From positions 26,414,001 to 26,478,000 of the forward strand of contig CM075987.1 of NCBI GenBank assembly GCA_038087875.1: a DNA stretch of 64,000 bases. Reading direction: 5' to 3'. The position numbers were made by a program, and so were the translations under genes. The notes beneath the pieces were generated by a model. The model did no database searches, was not told the DNA's origin, and saw only the letters and a program-made list of their open reading frames with translations. Below, piece by piece: positions 120 through 53,055 of the stretch. The first letter of the stretch is position 1. Each line of letters opens with the position of its first letter. The stretch is from Malacoraja senta. Its lineage: Eukaryota.

Positions 120-613
120 CTAGTGGCGGGATATCCAAGATGCTAAAAGTCAAGCTCTTCCAGTCCGTAGTCCTTCTCTACAGCCCTCTGTGCCAGTGAG
201 ACGTGGAAAATCAATCTGAAGATGAAAAATAAATTGGACGCATCCCAACAACGCTGCTTGAGGAGGATCCTGAAGACTAGCGACAGAGACCACATCGCAA
301 ACGAGGAGATCTACCGGGAAACTGCAACAAAGCCTCTCAGCCAGGACATAGAGGGACGCAGGATGAAATCTGCAGAACGTGTACTCAGAATGTCACCAGA
401 TCGTGCGCCTAAGATAGCAATGACCTGGCGACCTGACGGAAGAAGGAAAAGAGGCCGACCAAAACTCACATGGAGGCGAACATTCCAGAAGGATTTGGAA
501 GCCCGGGACGCTAACCTATCGAGGATGGAAGACGTCGCACATGACCGAACAGAATGGCGAGAGCTTGCTGCTCAATGTACTCAGTGTGGGAGGAACTAAG
601 TCTAAGCAAGTCT
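120..613 (+). mobile_element. RTE-clade LINE 3' fragment
   Basis: ORF 222-599 with QRCLRRILK...KIAMTWRPDGRRKRGRPKLTWRRT, typical of the RTE C-terminus. Followed by a taagtctaagcaagtc tail. Confidence 0.8.
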
Positions 614-639: not shown

Positions 640-842
640 CCGTGACCTGCGTGGGTTTTCTCCGAGATCATCGGTTTCCTGCCACACTCCAAAGATGTAC
701 AGCTTTGCAGGTCGATTGGCTTGGGGTTGTATACTTGTAAGTTGTCCCTAGTGTGTGTAGGATAGTGTCAATGTGCAGGGATCACTGGTCGGTGCGGACT
801 CGGTGGGCCGAAGGGCCGGATCTCCGCGCTGAATCTCTAAAA
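640..842 (+). mobile_element. HE1/V-SINE-like SINE, 5'-truncated
   Basis: Matches the body and 3' tail of full copies such as 19041-19338. Confidence 0.8.
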
Positions 843-20468: not shown

Positions 20469-21698
20469 GAAGGGATTTTCATTTGCATTGTTAGCAGCAG
20501 AAATCAACCTGATTTCCAAAGCCTTCATCTCCTGATTCACAGGGGAAGGCTGATAGCCAGAGTATGGCATTAATTGGAAGACATTTAAACCATCTCACCC
20601 ATAGATGGCAGCCCAATTCAGCGATCAAGCAAGCCCAAAGTCAAGCAATGTTTCAATCTCAGATAGACACAAAACGCTGGAGTAGCTCAGCGGGTCAGGC
20701 AGCATCTCTGGAGAAACGGAATGAGTGATGTTTTGGGTCGAGACTTTCAGAAGAAGGGTCTCGACCTGAAACGTCATCCATTCTTTTTCTCCAGAGACGC
20801 TGCCTGTCCCGCTGAGTTACTCCAGCACTCCATGTCTCTCTGTGGTTTAGAGTAGGATCAGTTTTATAACCGGTGCTGGTAGTCGGTGTGGACACAGCCT
20901 ATCACCGGTTTAAACCAGCATCTGCGGTTCCTTCCAACGCAACGCACAATGTTTCAATCTCTGCACTTTTTATGAAAGTAGTGCATTTACAAATCTTGCA
21001 TCGTTATCCCACAAACACTCAGTGTGACAGTAAGCTAATAACCTTCTCTCCTGCACAGTTTTGCAGTGTTCATCCCTAGTGTGAGTAGGACAGTGTGAGT
21101 GTGCGGGGATGGCTGGTCGGTTAGGACGAAAGTTCAGAGCCACTGTTTCCGCGCAGTAGCTCTGAACTAAACTATAGTCTTCCGCGGAAGGTAAACCAAT
21201 CGATTCGTATTGGATTAGGACTGGGGTCCCAGAGGTGAAAGGTGAGCTAGACTCATCAACCATCATCTTAATCCCCTGAACAGATAGTCGTTTTAACAAT
21301 GATGCATTGTACAATTAATTCTTCTCCTGCCACTGATAAGTACCAGCAGTAATTGATACTTATTCTGTTTGCGATTGAAATCCCCTTTATGCTCTGACGC
21401 AGCAAAAATGGTTAATCCAGCTGCCAATTGAGTGTAAAAACAATACCATTCAACATCTGCTGGCGAAGATCATTGTTTGTCTTTTGCTGCACATGGTGGC
21501 GCAGCGGTAGAGTTGCTGCCTCACAGCGCCAGGGACCCGGGTTAGATCCCGACTATGGGTGCTGTCCGTTCGGAGTTTGTACGTTCTTCCCGTAACCTAG
21601 CGTGGGTTTTCTCCAGGTGCTCCGGTTTCCTCCCACATTCCGAAGATGTGCAGGATTGTAGGTTCATCGGCTTGGTATAAAAATGTAAAAATTGTCCC

Positions 21699-21743
<45 letters not shown>

Positions 21744-21748
21744 ATAGT

Positions 21749-21888
21749 TCTTCTTCTTCTTGCGTATGGCGTGCACAGCCTAAAGTTGTAAGACAACTTG
21801 TTCTATTTGATCTTCCGTTTGTGCACGCCAGGTTGATTGCATTCATCGAAACAGGGTGGACCACGTGAAGGTTGCAATCTCCCACACC
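21749..21888 (-). mobile_element. Second copy of the HDV-ribozyme-headed short retroposon, inserted in a SINE
   Basis: TSD ggatagt at 21742-21748 and 21891-21897. (TTC)n tail on +. Aligns over its full length with 50621-50760. Confidence 0.85.
21835..21888 (-). ncRNA. HDV-like ribozyme, probably inactivated copy
   Basis: GGTGTGG GA GATTGCA ACC TTCACGT GGT CCACCCT GT TTCGA TGAA TGCAATC. L3 is UUCACGU as in CPEB3. The catalytic C is T (CpG decay) and P1 has one mismatch. Confidence 0.75.
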
Positions 21889-21959
21889 AAGGATAGTGCT
21901 AATGTACTGGTCGGCGCGGACTCGGTGGGCCGAAGGACCTGTTTCTGCGCTGTATCTCT

Positions 21960-23906
21960 TTTTTTTTTCTTTTTTTTAAATTTTATTTATTAAAAGTAAA
22001 TACGTTACATTTTGATGGTACCTTTTTACAGGTTCCCAGAATTATTATAACATTCTTTGTACAACTTTCCTTTTTTTTTTTTTTAGAAAGAAAGAAATGA
22101 GAAAGAAAGAAGTAGTGAAGAGTAAAGGAAAGTCTAGTGAGTGTGAGGTAAAGAAAAGAAATAAGTAAGAAAGTGAAGCAGAAAGGAGATTCTCCCTCGC
22201 CACAAGTCAATGCTTTTTTATATTCTTGATCATTTTTCGCCCAAACCCAGAATTTTTTAATTTTACGATGCTATTGCACCACATGAATCCACAAGGTCAA
22301 TAAATGGAGACCAACTCGTTACGAATTGGTCTTGTTTATCTATTAGGAGGAGTCTCATTTCTTCCAAGTGGGCAGTTTCCAACATATTACCAATCCACAT
22401 TTTGAGTGTTGGTATAGTAGCATTTTTTCCAAAATTTAAGTATGAGTTTTTTTGCTGTTATTAAACCATAATTAAAAAATGAAATTTGGGATATATTTAA
22501 TTTGTTTCCATCTCCTATTACTCCGAAGATAATCATTTCCATATTAGGTTCCATTTTTATCTTAAATAAACTAGTGAATATATCAAATATATCACACCAA
22601 AATCCATGAAGTTTTGTGCAAGAAATGAAAGAATGTGTGATATTGGCATTTTGAGAAAGACATTTATCACAGATGGGAGAAATATTTGAATAAAATGTAT
22701 TCAACCTAACTTTTGAATAATATAATCTATGTAATATTTTAAATTGAATTAAATTATGTCTAGCGTTAATCGAACATTTATGTATATATATCAAATACCT
22801 TTCCCATGTTTCTTTAGAAATTGTTTTCATTCATGCTTTTTCCCAGTCTTCTCTAATTGCCTCTGTTGATGGCAGTTCTCTATTAAGAATACTATTATAT
22901 AAATATGATATTAATTTTTGTGAGTCCGCCTTAATATTCATTGCTTCTTCCAATGGGTCTATCATTATGCTCTGTAGTCTTGGTATATATATTTTTATAA
23001 AGTCACATATCTGTAAATATTTAAAGTATTGGTTATTATTCAGATTAAATTTTGATTTTAATTGTCGAAATGATAATAAATTTCCCATTTCATACATGTC
23101 ACCCACCTTTTTAATTCCCAATCTTTCCCATTGTCTATATGTTTTATCCATAAAAGATGGTTTAAATACCGGATTATTCACTATTGGTGTTAATGATGAT
23201 AAGTTCTTTAATTTTAAAGTTAATTTTATTTGTTTCCAAATTCGAATTATATTGTGTATAATTGGATTCTTCTTATATAATGTATTATTCAATTTTATCG
23301 GGGAGAAGAGGATCGCTCCTACATCGTACGGAAAACAATCCTCTTTCTCCATTCTTATCCATTCCATCTGTTGAGAAGGACAGTCCAACCAATAAATTAT
23401 ATTCTTAATATGCACTGCCCAATAATACATCTTTAGGTTTACACAAATGATTTATTTTAATTCCATGTGCTTTGTAGTCCCAAATAAAATTAGTAATATT
23501 AGAGTCTAGTTTAAAAAAAAATTATTTTGGTATATGTATTAGAAACATAGAAACATAGAAAGTAGGTGCGAGAGCAGACCACCAGGTCCATCGAGCCCGC
23601 ACCGCCATTCGCTCATGGCTGAACACCAAACAAACACCCCTACCCACAAACAGTAGACACAAGACACAGAACACAAGACACTACCCTCCCCTTTATACCG
23701 CTATCACCCCTCTCCACCCCAAGAACCGCGTGATCTCCTGGGGGAGGCAAAAAAACGGATAAAAACCCAGGTCCAATTCGGGAAAAAAATCCGGGAAATT
23801 GGAATGGATTGAGATAAATATATTATTTGTGGTAGAACTATCATTTTTATAGCATTTATTCTGCCAATTAATGATAGTGGGAGCGTTTTCCAAAATTTAA
23901 TCAGAG
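21960..23906 (-). mobile_element. L1-clade LINE, 5'-truncated and AT-rich, with poly(A) and a 15-bp TSD
   Basis: ORF2 C-terminus with YYWA, LIQFKILHRLYYS and CDKC...HSFISC zinc knuckle. Poly-T on + from 21960. TSD ctgcgctgtatctct at 21945-21959 and 23907-23921. Contains a CR1-like 3' insertion near 23541-23800. Confidence 0.9.
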
Positions 23907-48840: not shown

Positions 48841-50620
48841 ATTTCGAGCTGGCAGAGAAGATTGCAGCTCCACACAGACAGCACTCAAGGTCAGATATGA
48901 ACCAGAGGTCCCTGGCGCTGTGAGGCAGCGACACTGACTACAGAGTCCCAGTGTTTTAGAAATGGTAAACTCAGTTCCAGACTAAAGGGCCTGTCCCACG
49001 GGCATGCGACTCCATGCGGCAAGCGCGACCTAACCGGAAGCGGGGGCCATGCGGGGGCCGCGCGGAGGTCGCGGGGCCGGTCCCACTTCGATCGCCGGAG
49101 CTGTATGGAGTTGTGCAGAGCTGGTCCCGACATCGCGCGGGGCTCCGAAAAACTGACACTGTTCAAAAATTCCACGCGGCAACGGCCTGCCGGCCCGCAG
49201 CCGCCTCGGGGCCCTGCGCACCGCCTCGAGCCAGGTGCGCAGGGCCTTCGAGCCAGCACCGCCATTCAATGTGATCTAGGCTGATCATCCCCAATCAGTA
49301 CCCCGTTCCTGCCTTCTCCCCATATCCCCTGACTCCGCTATCTTCAAGAACCCTATCCAGCTCTCTCTTGAAAGCATCCAGAGAACCTGCCTCCACCGCC
49401 CTCTGAGGCAGAGAATTCCACACTCTCTGTGAGAAAAATTGTTTCCTCATCTCCGTTCTAAATGGCTTACCCCCTTATTCTTAAACCCTCTTCATCCCTT
49501 ATCCAGCCCACATCATTCATCCTTATTTTATTTGCTTGTGATTGATGATTACTACAAAATAGTGAACAAGTGCTTCCACACCTAAAACAAAAACCTCCTT
49601 AAATAGAATCCCAAATATCATGGAATCTCATGGTATTTGATTGTCACTTGCGGGTGGAGCACCAAGGCAAATTCCTTGTATGTGAATACTTGGCCAATAA
49701 ACTTATTCATTCATTCATTCATTTCCTGAAATTTTCCAAGCCTTCCCCAACTGCGCGCGCACAGGGAGACGGCGTCATTTTGCGTCCCTACCGCGTCACC
49801 GGCGCCATTTTCAATTGTGACGCGGGTGACGGGCCTCCCCCAACGGCGCAGGCGCGGATGGTGGTAAATATACTTTTTTCCCCCCCAAATCATCCCACGG
49901 GCCGGATTGGACCCCTTCGCGGGCCGGATGCGGTAAAATTTCCCGAAATTATTTAATTTCCCTAAACTTACCTGAAGACGACCAGAATTTCCCGAATTTT
50001 CGGATAATTTCCTTCAATGTGGAAACGCAATAGTGAACAGCTTTGGGCAGTGTACTCTGGCTTTTTATAACTACCTTCAACTGCCCAAACCTGTTTCAAC
50101 TTGGACAGCTGATGGAAGATTAGAAGTGAAGCAAAAGTCAATAAGTTGATTGCGCTGTGATGGCTCAGCAGTAACGTTTAAATATGTTCTGCCTCAAGGA
50201 TAAATCACCCACCTGGTGGCAACTTTCAGTTATGAAAGCAGGTAGGGACTCTTGGTCCTCACATTATCAACCTGCTTTAGTCAGGAAAGGGGTGGCATTT
50301 CTCTGAACTTTGAGTGGGAAAGGAACTGCAGATGCTGGTTTAAACCCAAGATAGACACAAAAAGCTGGAGTGACTCAGCGGGTCAGGCAGCATCTCCGGA
50401 GGAAAAAGAATAGGTGACGTTTCGTGCCGAGACCTTTCTTCAGACTGAGGTTCAGGGGAAAGGGAAACGGGAGATATAGACGGTGATGTAGAGAAATATG
50501 GAACAAATGAAGAAGGGCCTCGACCCGAAACATCGCCCATTCCTTTTCTCCAGAGATGCTGCCTGTCCCGCTGTTGGTTTAAACCAGCAACTGCAGTTCT
50601 CTCCTACGTAGAACAAATGA

Positions 50621-50760
50621 TTCTTCTTCTTGCGCGTGGCGTGCGCAGCCTAAAGTTGTATGACAACTTGTTCTAATTGATCTTATTTGATTGTGCACGC
50701 CAGGTTGATTGCATTCGTTGAAACAGGGCGAACCATGTGAAGGTTGCAATCTCCCACCCC
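50621..50760 (-). mobile_element. ~140-bp non-autonomous retroposon: 5' HDV-like ribozyme, 3' hairpin, (AAG)n tail
   Basis: TSD aacaaatga at 50612-50620 and 50761-50769. Tail reads ttcttcttctt on +. Second copy at 21749-21888. Confidence 0.85.
50707..50760 (-). ncRNA. HDV-like (CPEB3-type) self-cleaving ribozyme with minimal P4; catalytic C retained
   Basis: Minus strand reads GGGGTGG GA GATTGCA ACC TTCACAT GGT TCGCCCT GT TTCAA CGAA TGCAATC. P1 (7 bp including G-U pairs), P2 (7 bp perfect), P3 (3 bp), L3 and J4/2 CGAA are in HDV order. Confidence 0.82.
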
Positions 50761-52855
50761 AACAAATGAATGAAAGACATGCAAAAAATTAACGATGGTA
50801 AAGGGCCCTCCCCCACCCGAGTCATTCTAGTTTGACTGTTGTCCTGGTGAGTTTCGTTGTCTGTAACTCGTTTTCACCCAGCCCACAGCTAACAATGGCC
50901 TGTTTCCTTTTATCATCATTACTTGTTTGCATATCTCTCATTCATTTGTTCCATATCTCTCCTGATCACCGTCTATATCTCTCGTTTCCTTTTTCCCCCG
51001 ACTCTCAGTCTGAAGAAGGGTCTCGACCCAAAACGTCTCCTATTCCTTCTCTCCAGAGATGCTGCCTGTCCCGCTGAGTCACTCCAGCTTTTTGTGTCTA
51101 TCTCTGAAAATTCATTCTTACCATTGGGAATTAAATCTAGGGCGAAACAAGATATTTGATTCCACAAATATAATATTTTATTTTATTCTTTGTTATTGTA
51201 GTTCAGTTTAGAGATACAGTGTGGATACAGGCCCTTCGTCCCACCGATAACATAGAACTAGTGTGGATGTGCCTACCAGCAATCACCCACACTAGTTCTA
51301 TGTTATCCCACTCTCCGTTACACACCCTGCACACTAGGGACAATTTTTACCGAAGCTAATTAACCTACAAACCTTCAAGTCTTTTGGAATGTGGGAGAAA
51401 ACCCATTTTGTCACGGGGAGAACAGACAATGTCCGTACAGACAGCACCCATAGTCAGGAAAACCCCCGGGGTCTCTGGCACTGTAAGGCTGCAACTCTAC
51501 TGCTGTGCCTCTGTGCTTCCCCCCAACATGTCGCCTGTTTGGTCGTGAGTAGTCGCCCAAAGAGTCGTACCTTTTTCTGGTCGACGCTGGATTTTCAACA
51601 CGTTGAGAATTTTTGGCCACCTGCTGCGACTTTGACGGGTGCCGGCAAGTCGCCGAAAAAAATCGCGCAAGTGGGACAGGCCCTTTTAAATTTCCCTTGC
51701 ACATGAAACGCACTTTTATTTCGAAGATAGACACAAAAGGCTGGAGTAACTCAGCGGGACAGGCAGCATCTCAGGAGAGAAGGAATAGATGACGTTTTGG
51801 GTCGAGACCCTTCTTCAGACTGAGAGTCAGGGGAGAGGGAGACGAGAGAAATAGACGGTGATACAGAGAGATGCAGAACAAATGAATGAAAGATATTCAA
51901 AAAAGTAACGGTGATCTAGGAAACAGCCCATTGTTAGCTGTGGCGTTTATTTAATTTAATTTAACTTTTATTTTGAACTTGGAAAGGTTCATGCATCCTA
52001 ACCCCTGAGTATGTTATACAAAGTGCTGGGTGTGATCATTAAACACCAAGGCTCGCTTCAGAAACCAAATTACAAGGGCAGAGTAAATCTAATAAATGAA
52101 CAAGACCCATTGACCTCTGAGGAACCAATTACCCAAATAAAAATCATTACATTTTAAAAATTCAAGTGATATATTCAAAGAGAAAATCCATTATTCTTAA
52201 TGGAATACAATGGAGCTCCGACTGGAAAAATTATTTTAAATTAATTTTTTGGCTTGTGAGTGTCAGTGGCAAGGCCAGGATTTATTGCCCAACTCCAGCT
52301 TGCTTGCTTGTCAATGATCCATTAGGGTAGCCTTTCTCAAGCACCATCCTTTGTGCAGCAAATTTATTCTCACGGGGTGGGTTATGCATGGCTTTTGACC
52401 CAGCAATGATAAAGGAATCATCCTACCATAACCAGAGAGCAGTGCTGAACTACTATCTACCTCTTTGGAGACCCTCGGACAATCCTTGATTGGACTTTGC
52501 TGGCTTTACCTTACTAAACGTCATTCCCTTATCACGTATCAGTCCATGCGGGTGTCACGATTGTAATCATGTATTGATTTTCCGCTGACTGGATAGCACG
52601 CAACAAAAGCTTTTCATTGTAGCTCGGTACACGTGACAATAAGCTGTACTGGAAGATCAAAAAGCTGAAACACAAATCACTGTCTTTGACCACTAGCTCA
52701 AACTTTTAATATTCATTTTTTAGCCTGGGAAATAAAATGCCTCTCTCAACTTCCAGAGTTTTCATGGAGAGACCTAATTGAGTTGAGTTGAGTTGAGTTC
52801 ATAAGTGATAGGAGCAGAATTTGGCCATTCGGCCCATCAGGTCTACTCCACCATT

Positions 52856-53055
52856 NNNNNNNNNNNNNNNNNNNNNNNNNNNNNNNNNNNNNNNNNNNNN
52901 NNNNNNNNNNNNNNNNNNNNNNNNNNNNNNNNNNNNNNNNNNNNNNNNNNNNNNNNNNNNNNNNNNNNNNNNNNNNNNNNNNNNNNNNNNNNNNNNNNNN
53001 NNNNNNNNNNNNNNNNNNNNNNNNNNNNNNNNNNNNNNNNNNNNNNNNNNNNNNN
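52856..53055. other. Assembly gap (200 N)
   Basis: Run of N inside a CR1 element. Confidence 0.99.

What the first reader, a model, noticed from the sequence alone, without database searches (positions are those of the whole stretch)
21749..21888. Second ribozyme-retroposon copy supports the fold and shows decay
Seen: an independent insertion (TSD ggatagt) with the same 54-nt head. The P1 3' strand is CCACCCT here versus TCGCCCT in the other copy, and both can pair with GGGGTGG. L3 is UUCACGU, and a UUCG sits where P4 would be. The catalytic C is T. In both copies the 3' half has nested inverted repeats (tggcgtgcaca/tgtgcacgcca and aagttgt/acaactt). Inference: the RNA is ribozyme plus a 3' recognition hairpin plus tail, and this copy is dead.
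Basis: partly seen in the sequence, partly recalled or inferred. Interest (0 to 1): 0.7.

Follow-up and report, generated by a model that had tools for sequence, protein, structure and literature searches.

The report
Decayed copy of ribozyme-headed retroposon
This is one worn-out copy of a 140-base jumping element, present thousands of times in this animal genome, whose first 54 bases look like a stripped-down self-cutting RNA of the same type as the mammalian CPEB3 ribozyme.

Summary
Window 21749-21888 (minus strand) is a full-length, TSD-flanked copy of a ~140-nt ORF-less retroposon with an (AAG)n tail. A 22-nt diagnostic word of the family matches 4,244 times in the 1.94-Gb genome.

Its first 54 nt fit an HDV-like double pseudoknot without P4. 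Within the family there is no covariation, because the copies are too alike. Consensus-like copies give weak, in-register matches to three HDV-type Rfam families.

Searching the genome with the CPEB3-ribozyme model found 39 of 60 scored matches above the curated threshold, up to 64 bits. These hits head other retroposon families. One is a 3.1-kb endonuclease/reverse-transcriptase LINE with the same (AAG)n tail.

Across these families P1, P2 and P3 covary. 11 of 18 pairs change on both sides, against 2-5 in slid controls.

This copy has U at the catalytic C, a CpG decay seen in 8 of 100 sampled copies, plus a P1 mismatch, so it is probably inactive. The "3' recognition hairpin" is not supported.

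This is a known kind of element (ribozyme-processed non-LTR retroposon) in a new P4-less, CPEB3-like form. Cleavage itself is untested.

The parts
21749..21888 (-). Copy A of the ~140-nt non-autonomous retroposon (the finding)
   Evidence: 92.9% identical to the consensus-like copy L016 over 140 aligned columns
21835..21888 (-). 54-nt HDV-like (CPEB3-type, P4-less) ribozyme head, decayed in this copy
   Evidence: Searches support the family. One search finds no HDV-type Rfam match for this copy at E<=10
21882..21888 (-). P1 5' strand GGTGTGG. G3>T gives a mismatch with C34
21873..21879 (-). P2 5' strand GATTGCA
   Evidence: pairs with 21835-21841
21860..21872 (-). P3 (ACC/GGT) enclosing L3 TTCACGT
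   Evidence: L3 is identical to that of the Rfam CPEB3 consensus
21853..21859 (-). P1 3' strand CCACCCT (G32>A makes U5-A32)
21846..21852 (-). G37 U38 (P1.1 partners of C22 and U21) and the 5-nt linker TTCGA that replaces P4
   Evidence: C22-G37 is kept in 32 of 32 rows with letters
21842..21845 (-). J4/2 TGAA. The catalytic C44 is T here (21845); the consensus is CGAA
21835..21841 (-). P2 3' strand TGCAATC
21767..21830 (-). 3' domain: 11-bp outer stem (21820-21830 with 21767-21777) enclosing a 7-bp hairpin (21793-21799 with 21783-21789, loop CTT)
   Evidence: The outer stem is dispensable for insertion
21749..21761 (-). (AAG)n tail
21742..21748 (.). Target-site duplication, 3' side of the element (plus strand GGATAGT)
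21891..21897 (.). Target-site duplication, 5' side of the element
21889..21890 (-). Two extra T between the TSD and G1
   Evidence: 6 of 30 copies with a TSD have 1-3 such extra bases
50621..50760 (-). Copy B of the same family. The catalytic C is kept; A25, U30 and A42 are variants
50761..50769 (.). TSD of copy B, 5' side (TCATTTGTT in element orientation). Its partner is at 50612-50620

Best explanation
Window 21749-21888 (minus strand) is a dead copy of a ~140-nt non-autonomous non-LTR retroposon.

Proposed mechanism:
1. A source copy is transcribed as part of a longer host transcript (inferred).
2. Its first 54 nt fold into a P4-less, CPEB3-type HDV-like double pseudoknot. The parts are P1 1-7/30-36 with a G1.U36 wobble, P2 10-16/48-54, P3 17-19/27-29, L3 UUCACGU, P1.1 C22-G37 plus U21.U38, and J4/2 C44-G-A-A. 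The fold is supported by covariation across related families.
3. The RNA cuts itself immediately 5' of G1, so it starts exactly at the element's first base. Cleavage is inferred from the precise 5' junctions and was not assayed.
4. The 3' end with its (AAG)n tail is used in trans by the reverse transcriptase of a LINE for target-primed reverse transcription, leaving 7-14-bp target-site duplications. The duplications are shown; the partner is inferred. The best candidate type is the 3.1-kb endonuclease/RT LINE of this genome, which carries the same ribozyme type with P4 and the same tail.

Copy A itself has U at the catalytic position and a U3.C34 mismatch in P1. Its RNA should not cleave.
For: Retroposon:
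- 40 of 40 scored genome matches are 94-100% identical over 138-145 nt, out of 2,817 first-look candidates.
- A 22-nt diagnostic word that allows CpG decay matches 4,244 times, and its reversed control matches 0 times.
- A TSD was found in 30 of 31 rows examined, 9-14 nt long by the script's scoring.
- 5'-truncated copies with TSDs exist.
- A paralogous empty site exists for copy A.

Ribozyme:
- In 24 of the 30 rows with a TSD, the TSD abuts the first G of P1. The other 6 have 1-3 extra bases.
- Rfam in E-value mode on two consensus-like copies puts only HDV-type families on top. L016 gives CPEB3 at 17.5 bits (E 0.021) and HDV-F-prausnitzii at 14.4 bits. L028 gives HDV_ribozyme at 20.0 bits, HDV-F-prausnitzii at 14.4 bits and CPEB3 at 12.5 bits. 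All are full-length model alignments with the cleavage site at G1, and only P4 is missing.
- In the whole genome, 39 of 60 scored matches to RF00622 exceed its gathering score, with a best of 64.2 bits (E 2.7e-14). None of the 14 control genomes has a match above it.
- All 30 fetched matches plus 4 copies of this family align in register. On that alignment 86.0% of cells pair, against 36-51% when partners are slid.
- 11 of 18 pairs change on both sides, against 2-5 when slid. This covers 86 cells, against 2-11.
- The covariation score is 0.420, against 0.06-0.11 when slid, and 0 of 500 shuffles reach it.
- The four rows of this family carry standard pair types seen in no other family at 8 of the 17 P1-P3 pairs (my reading).
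- The descriptor test gave 0 of 600,000 shuffles at the full level. In 200,350 bases of loci it hit 30 family copies and 0 non-family sites.

Dead copy:
- T at 21845.
- C-to-U at this position is reported to inactivate HDV-type ribozymes (passages).
- This copy has no HDV-type Rfam match at E<=10.

Partner type:
- 3 of 3 full-length copies of the LINE start at the ribozyme's first G, end in (AAG)n and have 10-12-bp TSDs.
- Pfam finds RVT_1 at 116.6 bits and Exo_endo_phos_2 at 36.4 bits.
Against: - No cleavage assay was run and no RNA 5'-end data were obtained. All four runs laid were contigs, which cannot show starts.
- This family's own head scores far below the Rfam gathering scores (12.5-20 bits against 35-50), and the window gave 0 matches at gathering level.
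- Within the family none of the 17 P1-P3 pairs, nor the P1.1 pair, changes on both sides.
- Nested-fold energy is no better than for shuffles. The head has z +0.61 (139 of 200 shuffles fold as well) and the whole element has z -1.21.
- In the all-rows count, the measure 'pairs with a change on both sides' was reached by 124 of 500 shuffles, and 'further pair types' by 58 of 500.
- Loose HDV descriptors are unspecific, with 24 level-1 hits in the window. I wrote the strict descriptor after seeing the sequence.
- A missing P4 together with a U.U pair in P1.1 could make cleavage slow.
- No LINE with this family's own head or 3' end was found.
- The candidate LINE's 3' end shares only ACG...(AAG)n with it.
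Confidence: 0.8

Rival explanations
1. The head is a catalytically dead relic of an HDV-like ribozyme, because loss of P4 killed it. The family's uniform 5' end would then come from transcription starting at G1 from an internal or master-locus promoter. The element would still be copied by a LINE through its 3' end.
For: The head scores only 12.5-20 bits against HDV-type models. P4 is absent and P1.1 has one U.U pair. There are no RNA data. In trypanosomes the same 77 nt act both as promoter and as ribozyme (abstract listing of PMC3383444).
Against: A second, independent short family (L080-L082, L095, L096, L098) has the same P4-less linker. The one copy I checked for a TSD (L082) starts at the first G, and it passes the CPEB3 gathering score at 37.4 bits. 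P4-less HDV-like ribozymes are reported as natural (passage). No tRNA, 5S or 7SL likeness was found. Extra bases at 5' junctions are T, TT, CA and CTT, never the extra G that I recall being typical of capped templates (the cap rule is recalled, not tested).
Confidence: 0.12
2. It is an ordinary SINE whose 5' part only looks like a ribozyme by chance. The helices have no function.
For: Loose double-pseudoknot descriptors hit 118 (level 0) and 24 (level 1) places in this 64-kb window. Fold energies are not better than for shuffles. There is no within-family covariation.
Against: The top Rfam matches out of 4,227 families are HDV-type, in register with the TSD-defined 5' end. Covariation across seven families holds against slid controls. 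None of 600,000 shuffles reached the full descriptor.
Confidence: 0.04
3. The 3' nested hairpin is the specific recognition signal of the mobilising reverse transcriptase.
For: The 11-bp and 7-bp stems are real and are predicted in the minimum-energy fold. The inner hairpin is kept in most copies, with 97.2% of cells paired.
Against: Of the 29 genome matches to a head word followed by non-family bases, many are TSD-flanked copies that lack the 5' arm of the outer stem, with several different deletion end points. A copy holding only about the last 27 nt of the element plus its tail was inserted (L064). The LINE with the same tail has no comparable hairpin. Pairing in the family alignment reflects the consensus only.
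Confidence: 0.2

Closest known systems
R2 SIDEs (short internally deleted elements of R2; PMC3414825, abstract seen in the search listing; review passage)
   Same: ORF-less derivatives that keep a 5' HDV-like ribozyme, which sets the 5' end, and a 3' end used by the LINE protein in trans.
   Different: R2 and its SIDEs insert site-specifically in 28S rDNA and their ribozymes are long (~184 nt according to the review). This family is dispersed (4,244 diagnostic-word matches), its ribozyme is 54 nt without P4, and no parent LINE with the same head was found.
L1Tc / NARTc of Trypanosoma cruzi (PMC3383444, PMC3185411; abstracts seen in the listing)
   Same: A dispersed LINE and its truncated non-autonomous partner share an HDV-like ribozyme at the RNA 5' end, which frees the element from co-transcripts.
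   Different: That ribozyme is a 77-nt element that is also a promoter, in a protist with polycistronic transcription. No promoter function was tested here.
HDV-like ribozymes at 5' ends of RTE and baggins LINEs (Ruminski et al. 2011; not held, known to me only through the review passages of PMC6765202)
   Same: Promoter-less LINEs processed from read-through transcripts by a 5' HDV-like ribozyme. The review also says some SINEs use HDV-like ribozymes.
   Different: I could not read the primary paper, so I cannot say which SINEs or species it covers. The clade of the LINE found here was not determined.
Mammalian CPEB3 ribozyme (Rfam RF00622; PMC4836649 passages)
   Same: Identical spacing of P1 (7), J1/2 (2), P2 (7), P3 (3) and L3 (7). 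Identical L3 UUCACGU. P1.1 has one G-C and one U.U pair. J4/2 is CGAA. Sister families in this genome pass the curated model at 37-64 bits.
   Different: CPEB3 is described as a conserved mammalian intronic ribozyme and has P4. This one is the head of a multi-copy retroposon, lacks P4, and itself scores only 12.5-17.5 bits.
Minimal (P4-less) HDV-like ribozymes and theta ribozymes (preprint 10.1101/2023.06.13.544163, passages)
   Same: A double pseudoknot without the P4 domain. Inactivation by C-to-U at the first J4/2 position.
   Different: Those come from metagenomes and gut phages, where they lie next to tRNAs. This one heads a retroposon in an animal genome.
Schistosoma SINE-like elements with hammerhead or twister ribozymes (PMC6765202 passages; PMC8501958 abstract in the listing)
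   Same: Short non-autonomous retroposons that carry a self-cleaving ribozyme.
   Different: A different ribozyme class. The hammerhead-bearing SINE-like elements are described as often tandemly repeated and transcribed by Pol III.

Membership tests
HDV-like self-cleaving ribozymes | Nested double pseudoknot: P1 and P2 cross, and P3 lies inside | tested here: met
   All three helices are present in the consensus-like copy. They covary across 34 rows from seven families: 11 of 18 pairs change on both sides, and 86.0% of cells pair against 36-51% when slid.
HDV-like self-cleaving ribozymes | Catalytic cytosine at the first position of J4/2, just before the P2 3' strand | tested here: met
   The family consensus is CGAA, with C kept in 92 of 100 sampled copies. 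In copy A it is T, at 21845.
HDV-like self-cleaving ribozymes | P1.1 pairing between L3 and the bases after P1, and the U20/G25 pair of L3 | tested here: met
   C22-G37 is kept in 32 of 32 rows with letters. U20 and G25 are present in the consensus. The roles of these bases are taken from passages.
HDV-like self-cleaving ribozymes | P4 helix | tested here: not met
   Five nt (UUCGA) stand in its place. P4-less natural variants are reported, so this does not exclude membership.
HDV-like self-cleaving ribozymes | Site-specific self-cleavage immediately 5' of G1 | not testable with these tools
   The support is indirect only: 24 of 30 TSDs abut G1. The runs available were contigs.
Rfam RF00622 CPEB3_ribozyme / RF00094 HDV_ribozyme / RF02682 | Score at or above the curated gathering score | tested here: not met
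   This family scores 12.5-20.0 bits against 35-50, and copies A and B give no match. Sister families do meet it: L078 59.7, L079 59.7, L094 50.6, L082 37.4 bits.
Non-autonomous non-LTR retroposon (SINE in the broad sense / SIDE-like) | Dispersed copies with variable TSDs, a simple-repeat 3' tail, 5'-truncated copies and no ORF | tested here: met
   The element is only 140 nt.
Non-autonomous non-LTR retroposon (SINE in the broad sense / SIDE-like) | An autonomous partner LINE that shares the 3' end (or the head) | tested here: inconclusive
   No LINE with the same head or the same 3' end was found. Each of those tests would let an unrelated upstream sequence pass with only 18-56% probability. 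A LINE with the same ribozyme type and the same (AAG)n tail exists.
Classical SINE (Pol III head from tRNA, 7SL or 5S) | Head derived from a Pol III gene with A and B boxes | tested here: not met
   No tRNA, 7SL or 5S match at gathering level or at E<=10. ARAGORN finds none.

The most novel reading that the evidence does not exclude
The mammalian intronic CPEB3 ribozyme is a domesticated head of this retroposon lineage.

In this genome a 3.1-kb LINE and several short retroposons begin with ribozymes that pass the curated 'mammalian CPEB3' model at up to 64 bits. By my count on the alignment, the LINE copy L078 matches the model consensus at 46 of 63 displayed positions, including an uninterrupted 18-nt block. 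One family (L083, L089, L093, L094) also has a P4 stem like that of the model consensus.

The 54-nt P4-less head of the present family would then be the smallest natural member of that lineage. I did not establish which organism the genome comes from, so 'outside mammals' is not shown here.
Probability: 0.3. Interest if true: 0.8.

Novelty: new variant of a known kind. Interest (0 to 1): 0.6.

Why it matters
Ribozyme-processed non-LTR retrotransposons are known. What is unusual here is a 54-nt P4-less version heading a 140-nt element with thousands of copies.

If it cleaves, it would be among the smallest natural HDV-type ribozymes with an evident biological job, and a ready natural series for studying what P4 contributes. 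Several related families in the same genome differ by compensatory helix changes. Natural C-to-U copies such as this one could serve as built-in negative controls.

The close sequence likeness of sister families to the CPEB3 ribozyme also makes the origin of that ribozyme testable by comparative genomics. Passages I read call it conserved in mammals and evolutionarily young.

Tried and rejected
- **Rfam at gathering level on the window:** 0 matches. E-value mode on copies B and A gave only a snoRNA-like chance match each. The decayed window copies hide the signal that consensus-like copies show.
- **Nested-fold energies against shuffles:** not significant. These folds cannot score a pseudoknot.
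- **Within-family covariation on 52 copies:** uninformative. Rows 31-52 had been picked with an exact 22-nt word, so their invariance over positions 33-54 is by construction.
- **Search for a parent LINE:** I used words of the head or the 3' end followed or preceded by non-family bases. They returned only deletion variants, 5'-truncated copies and singletons.
- **RVT_1 search of the genome:** 159,857 first-look candidates, and the loci could not be cut out. Not useful.
- **The old RTE-like fragment at window 183-599:** its family ends in ...TAAGTCTAAGTAAG and is unrelated.
- **Metagenome scan with a core pattern that left the P3 3' strand and most of the P1 3' strand free:** 3 loci, none with the helices, so these are chance.
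- **Sequencing runs:** 20 of 23 listed rows hold the element, under six coded organism labels. The four runs laid were contigs, and contig ends at G1 occur in DNA-type runs too. Nothing can therefore be said about RNA starts, and no empty site was seen for copy B.
- **Earlier notes of this scan:** nothing for this genome or sequence.
- **Papers:** Ruminski 2011 and Webb & Luptak 2011 are not held. No paper in searches or 93 described this family or a retroposon origin of CPEB3. I saw only listings and the passages cited.
- **Clade of the LINE:** not determined.

Full report
**What is at the coordinates**

Read on the minus strand, window 21888 down to 21749 is one complete element. It consists of a 54-nt head, a 3' domain with two nested inverted repeats, and an AAGAAGAAGAAGA tail. 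It is flanked by the 7-nt duplication GGATAGT (plus strand) at 21742-21748 and 21891-21897. Two extra T lie between the duplication and the first G.

The element sits inside a copy of an abundant tRNA-like SINE. An intact paralogue of that SINE (window 640-838) is collinear across the insertion point and holds GGATAGT once. It therefore acts as an empty site.

The only other copy in the window is at 50621-50760 (minus strand). It is 88.7% identical and has its own 9-nt duplication. The exception is that this copy's own P1 5' strand is GGTGTGG, so it has a U3.C34 mismatch with its own partner.

**The family**

The assembly is 1.94 Gb in 6,182 contigs. A search with copy B gave 2,817 first-look candidates. 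All 40 that were scored are 94-100% identical over 138-145 nt.

A 22-nt word of the head that allows CpG decay at two sites matches 4,244 times, and its reversed control matches 0 times. L016 behaves as the consensus. Among the copies fetched, the others are 95-100% identical to it, although that set was chosen for likeness to copy B.

I examined 31 rows: 30 loci plus copy A. L001 is copy B, and L005 and L006 are identical including flanks. A script found a duplication in 30 of them, 9-14 nt long by its scoring. In 24 of these 30 the duplication abuts the first G of the head, and in 6 there are 1-3 extra bases.

5'-truncated copies with duplications also exist. Runs under six coded organism labels hold the element. 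Contigs of four of them give the same majority letters as L016.

This is a young, abundant, ORF-less non-LTR retroposon. It has no tRNA, 7SL or 5S likeness.

**Is the head a ribozyme? Tests that said nothing**

Several tests were silent.
- Rfam at gathering level gave 0 matches in the window.
- E-value mode on the two window copies gave only chance snoRNA-like matches.
- The nested fold of the head recovers P1 and P3 but is no more stable than shuffles (z +0.61). The whole element has z -1.21.
- On 52 aligned copies, none of the 17 P1-P3 pairs changes on both sides. The copies are too alike, and 22 of the rows had been selected with an exact word of the head.

I cannot tell whether it concerns the same family. 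Here those grounds turned out not to be decisive.

**Is the head a ribozyme? Tests that spoke**

1. *Rfam on consensus-like copies.* Rfam in E-value mode puts HDV-type families on top out of 4,227.
   - L016 gives CPEB3_ribozyme at 17.5 bits (E 0.021) and HDV-F-prausnitzii at 14.4 bits.
   - L028 gives HDV_ribozyme at 20.0 bits, HDV-F-prausnitzii at 14.4 bits and CPEB3 at 12.5 bits.
   - All are end-to-end model alignments with the cleavage site on the element's first G. All are below the gathering scores (35-50), and the only length difference is the missing P4.
   - Against the CPEB3 consensus the head aligns without a gap from G1 to U38 and again from J4/2 to the end. L3 UUCACGU, G37-U38 and CGAA are identical.
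   - Passages on CPEB3 describe the same P1.1 (one G-C and one U.U pair) and a 4-nt J4/2.

2. *Whole-genome search with RF00622.* It returned 60 scored matches, of which 39 are above the gathering score, with a best of 64.2 bits (E 2.7e-14). None of the 14 control genomes has a match above the cut-off.

3. *What the matches are.* I fetched 30 of these places. They head other repeat families.
   - F1 (L075-L078, L086, L088) is a LINE.
   - F2 (L080-L082, L095, L096, L098) is a second ~150-nt short retroposon. It lacks P4 with almost the same linker, and L082 scores 37.4 bits.
   - F3, F4, F5 and F6 are further variants with P4.

4. *Cross-family covariation.* All 30 fetched places plus four copies of the present family align in register. 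On that alignment, with no row dropped:
   - 86.0% of cells pair, against 36-51% when the 3' partners are slid.
   - 11 of 18 pairs change on both sides, against 2-5 when slid. This covers 86 cells, against 2-11.
   - The covariation score is 0.420, against 0.06-0.11 when slid.
   - 0 of 500 shuffles reach the observed pairing, cell count or score.
   - Two measures were not exceptional by shuffle: pairs with a double change (124 of 500) and further pair types (58 of 500).
   - On a cleaner subset (15 of the 30 fetched places plus 2 copies of this family, 17 rows chosen by me), 15 of 23 pairs, P4 included, change on both sides.
   - The present family's rows carry standard pair types found in no other family at 8 of the 17 P1-P3 pairs (my reading).

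5. *Descriptor test.* A descriptor of my own, written after seeing the sequence and partly from recalled HDV features, was met by 0 of 600,000 shuffles of the head at its full level. In 200,350 bases of loci it hit 30 family copies and no other site. Looser levels are unspecific, with 24 hits in the window.

**Mechanism**

HDV-type ribozymes need no upstream sequence and cut at their own first base. That suits an element that lands anywhere and is transcribed by read-through. The uniform 5' junctions, without transduced flank, are what such cleavage predicts.

Reviews describe the same logic for R2, RTE, baggins and L1Tc, and for their non-autonomous derivatives (abstracts).

Cleavage itself, the polymerase that makes the precursor, and the partner enzyme are all inferred.

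**The candidate partner LINE**

F1 is 3,109 nt from its first G to the end of its tail. Three of three full-length copies start at the ribozyme, end in ...ACGAAAAG(AAG)n and have 10-12-bp duplications.

The copy I read has endonuclease and RT domains (Exo_endo_phos_2 at 36.4 bits, RVT_1 at 116.6 bits). Its reading frame is in at least three pieces.

It shares with the short family the ribozyme type, the tail and the size of the duplications. It does not share helix sequences or 3' sequence beyond ACG...(AAG)n.

**The 3' domain**

The 11-bp and 7-bp stems are real. However, many TSD-flanked variants lack the 5' arm of the outer stem, with several different deletion end points. A copy holding only about the last 27 nt of the element plus its tail was inserted. 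The LINE has no such hairpin. A specific recognition hairpin is therefore not supported. The inner stem remains possible.

**This copy**

The catalytic C44 lies in a CpG. In the first 100 of the 4,244 matches, my hand count gives TG at this CpG in 8 and CA in 13. At the neighbouring CpG the counts are 11 and 16. The C-to-U change is thus ordinary neutral decay after insertion.

G32>A in P1 is another CpG transition, present in 11-31% of the laid depth. Papers report C-to-U at this position as inactivating. With the added P1 mismatch, this copy should be inert. Like most copies, it was probably never a source.

**Verdict**

The specific inferences from this second copy are weak. The kind of element is known. 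The P4-less, CPEB3-like form in a 140-nt high-copy retroposon is, as far as my six paper searches show, undescribed.

Noticed in passing
L075-L078, L085, L086, L088, L106-L108 (for example G000:C1:86602702-86605810): A ~3.1-kb LINE with endonuclease and RT domains. It begins with a 73-nt CPEB3-like ribozyme (59.7-64.2 bits) and ends in (AAG)n, with 10-12-bp TSDs. The copy I read has frameshifts.
   Followed up: partly
L080-L082, L095, L096, L098: A second short (~150-nt) retroposon family with a P4-less CPEB3-like head (linker TTTCCA, J4/2 CCAA, a 6-nt P1 5' strand). It ends in ...TCGATAAGAAG. L082 has a 10-nt TSD and scores 37.4 bits on RF00622.
   Followed up: partly
L083, L089, L093, L094: A family whose ribozyme resembles the Rfam CPEB3 consensus also in the P4 stem (CAGATTC...GAATCTG). 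Its L3 is TTCTCGT. What lies downstream was not examined.
   Followed up: no
window 183-599 (+): C-terminal part of an old RTE-like LINE ORF (...GRPKLTWRR...) ending at a stop at 597-599. Its family (2,527 first-look candidates, 72-88% amino-acid identity among the scored matches) ends in ...TAAGTCTAAGTAAG.
   Followed up: partly
window 640-838; 21500-21748 with 21891-21960: Copies of an abundant tRNA-like SINE. Copy A of the finding inserted into one of them, next to an expanded (TG)n run at about 21706-21741.
   Followed up: partly
L063 (about 1415-1535 in element orientation): A copy of the family in which an inner part of the head (about positions 33-50) is inverted.
   Followed up: no
L034: A TSD-flanked insertion made of the 54-nt head plus only 18 further bases ending in AAA, without the family's 3' domain or tail. 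It looks as if an RNA starting at G1 had been copied by another route.
   Followed up: no
L005 and L006; L037 and L038; L053 and L054: Pairs of loci on different contigs or places that are identical including flanks. These are segmental duplications or assembly duplicates.
   Followed up: no
30 loci: The last base of the 5' TSD before G1 is T in most copies, often TT or GT. This suggests a preference of second-strand cleavage.
   Followed up: no
window 52856-53055: A run of 200 N (a gap or a withheld stretch).
   Followed up: no
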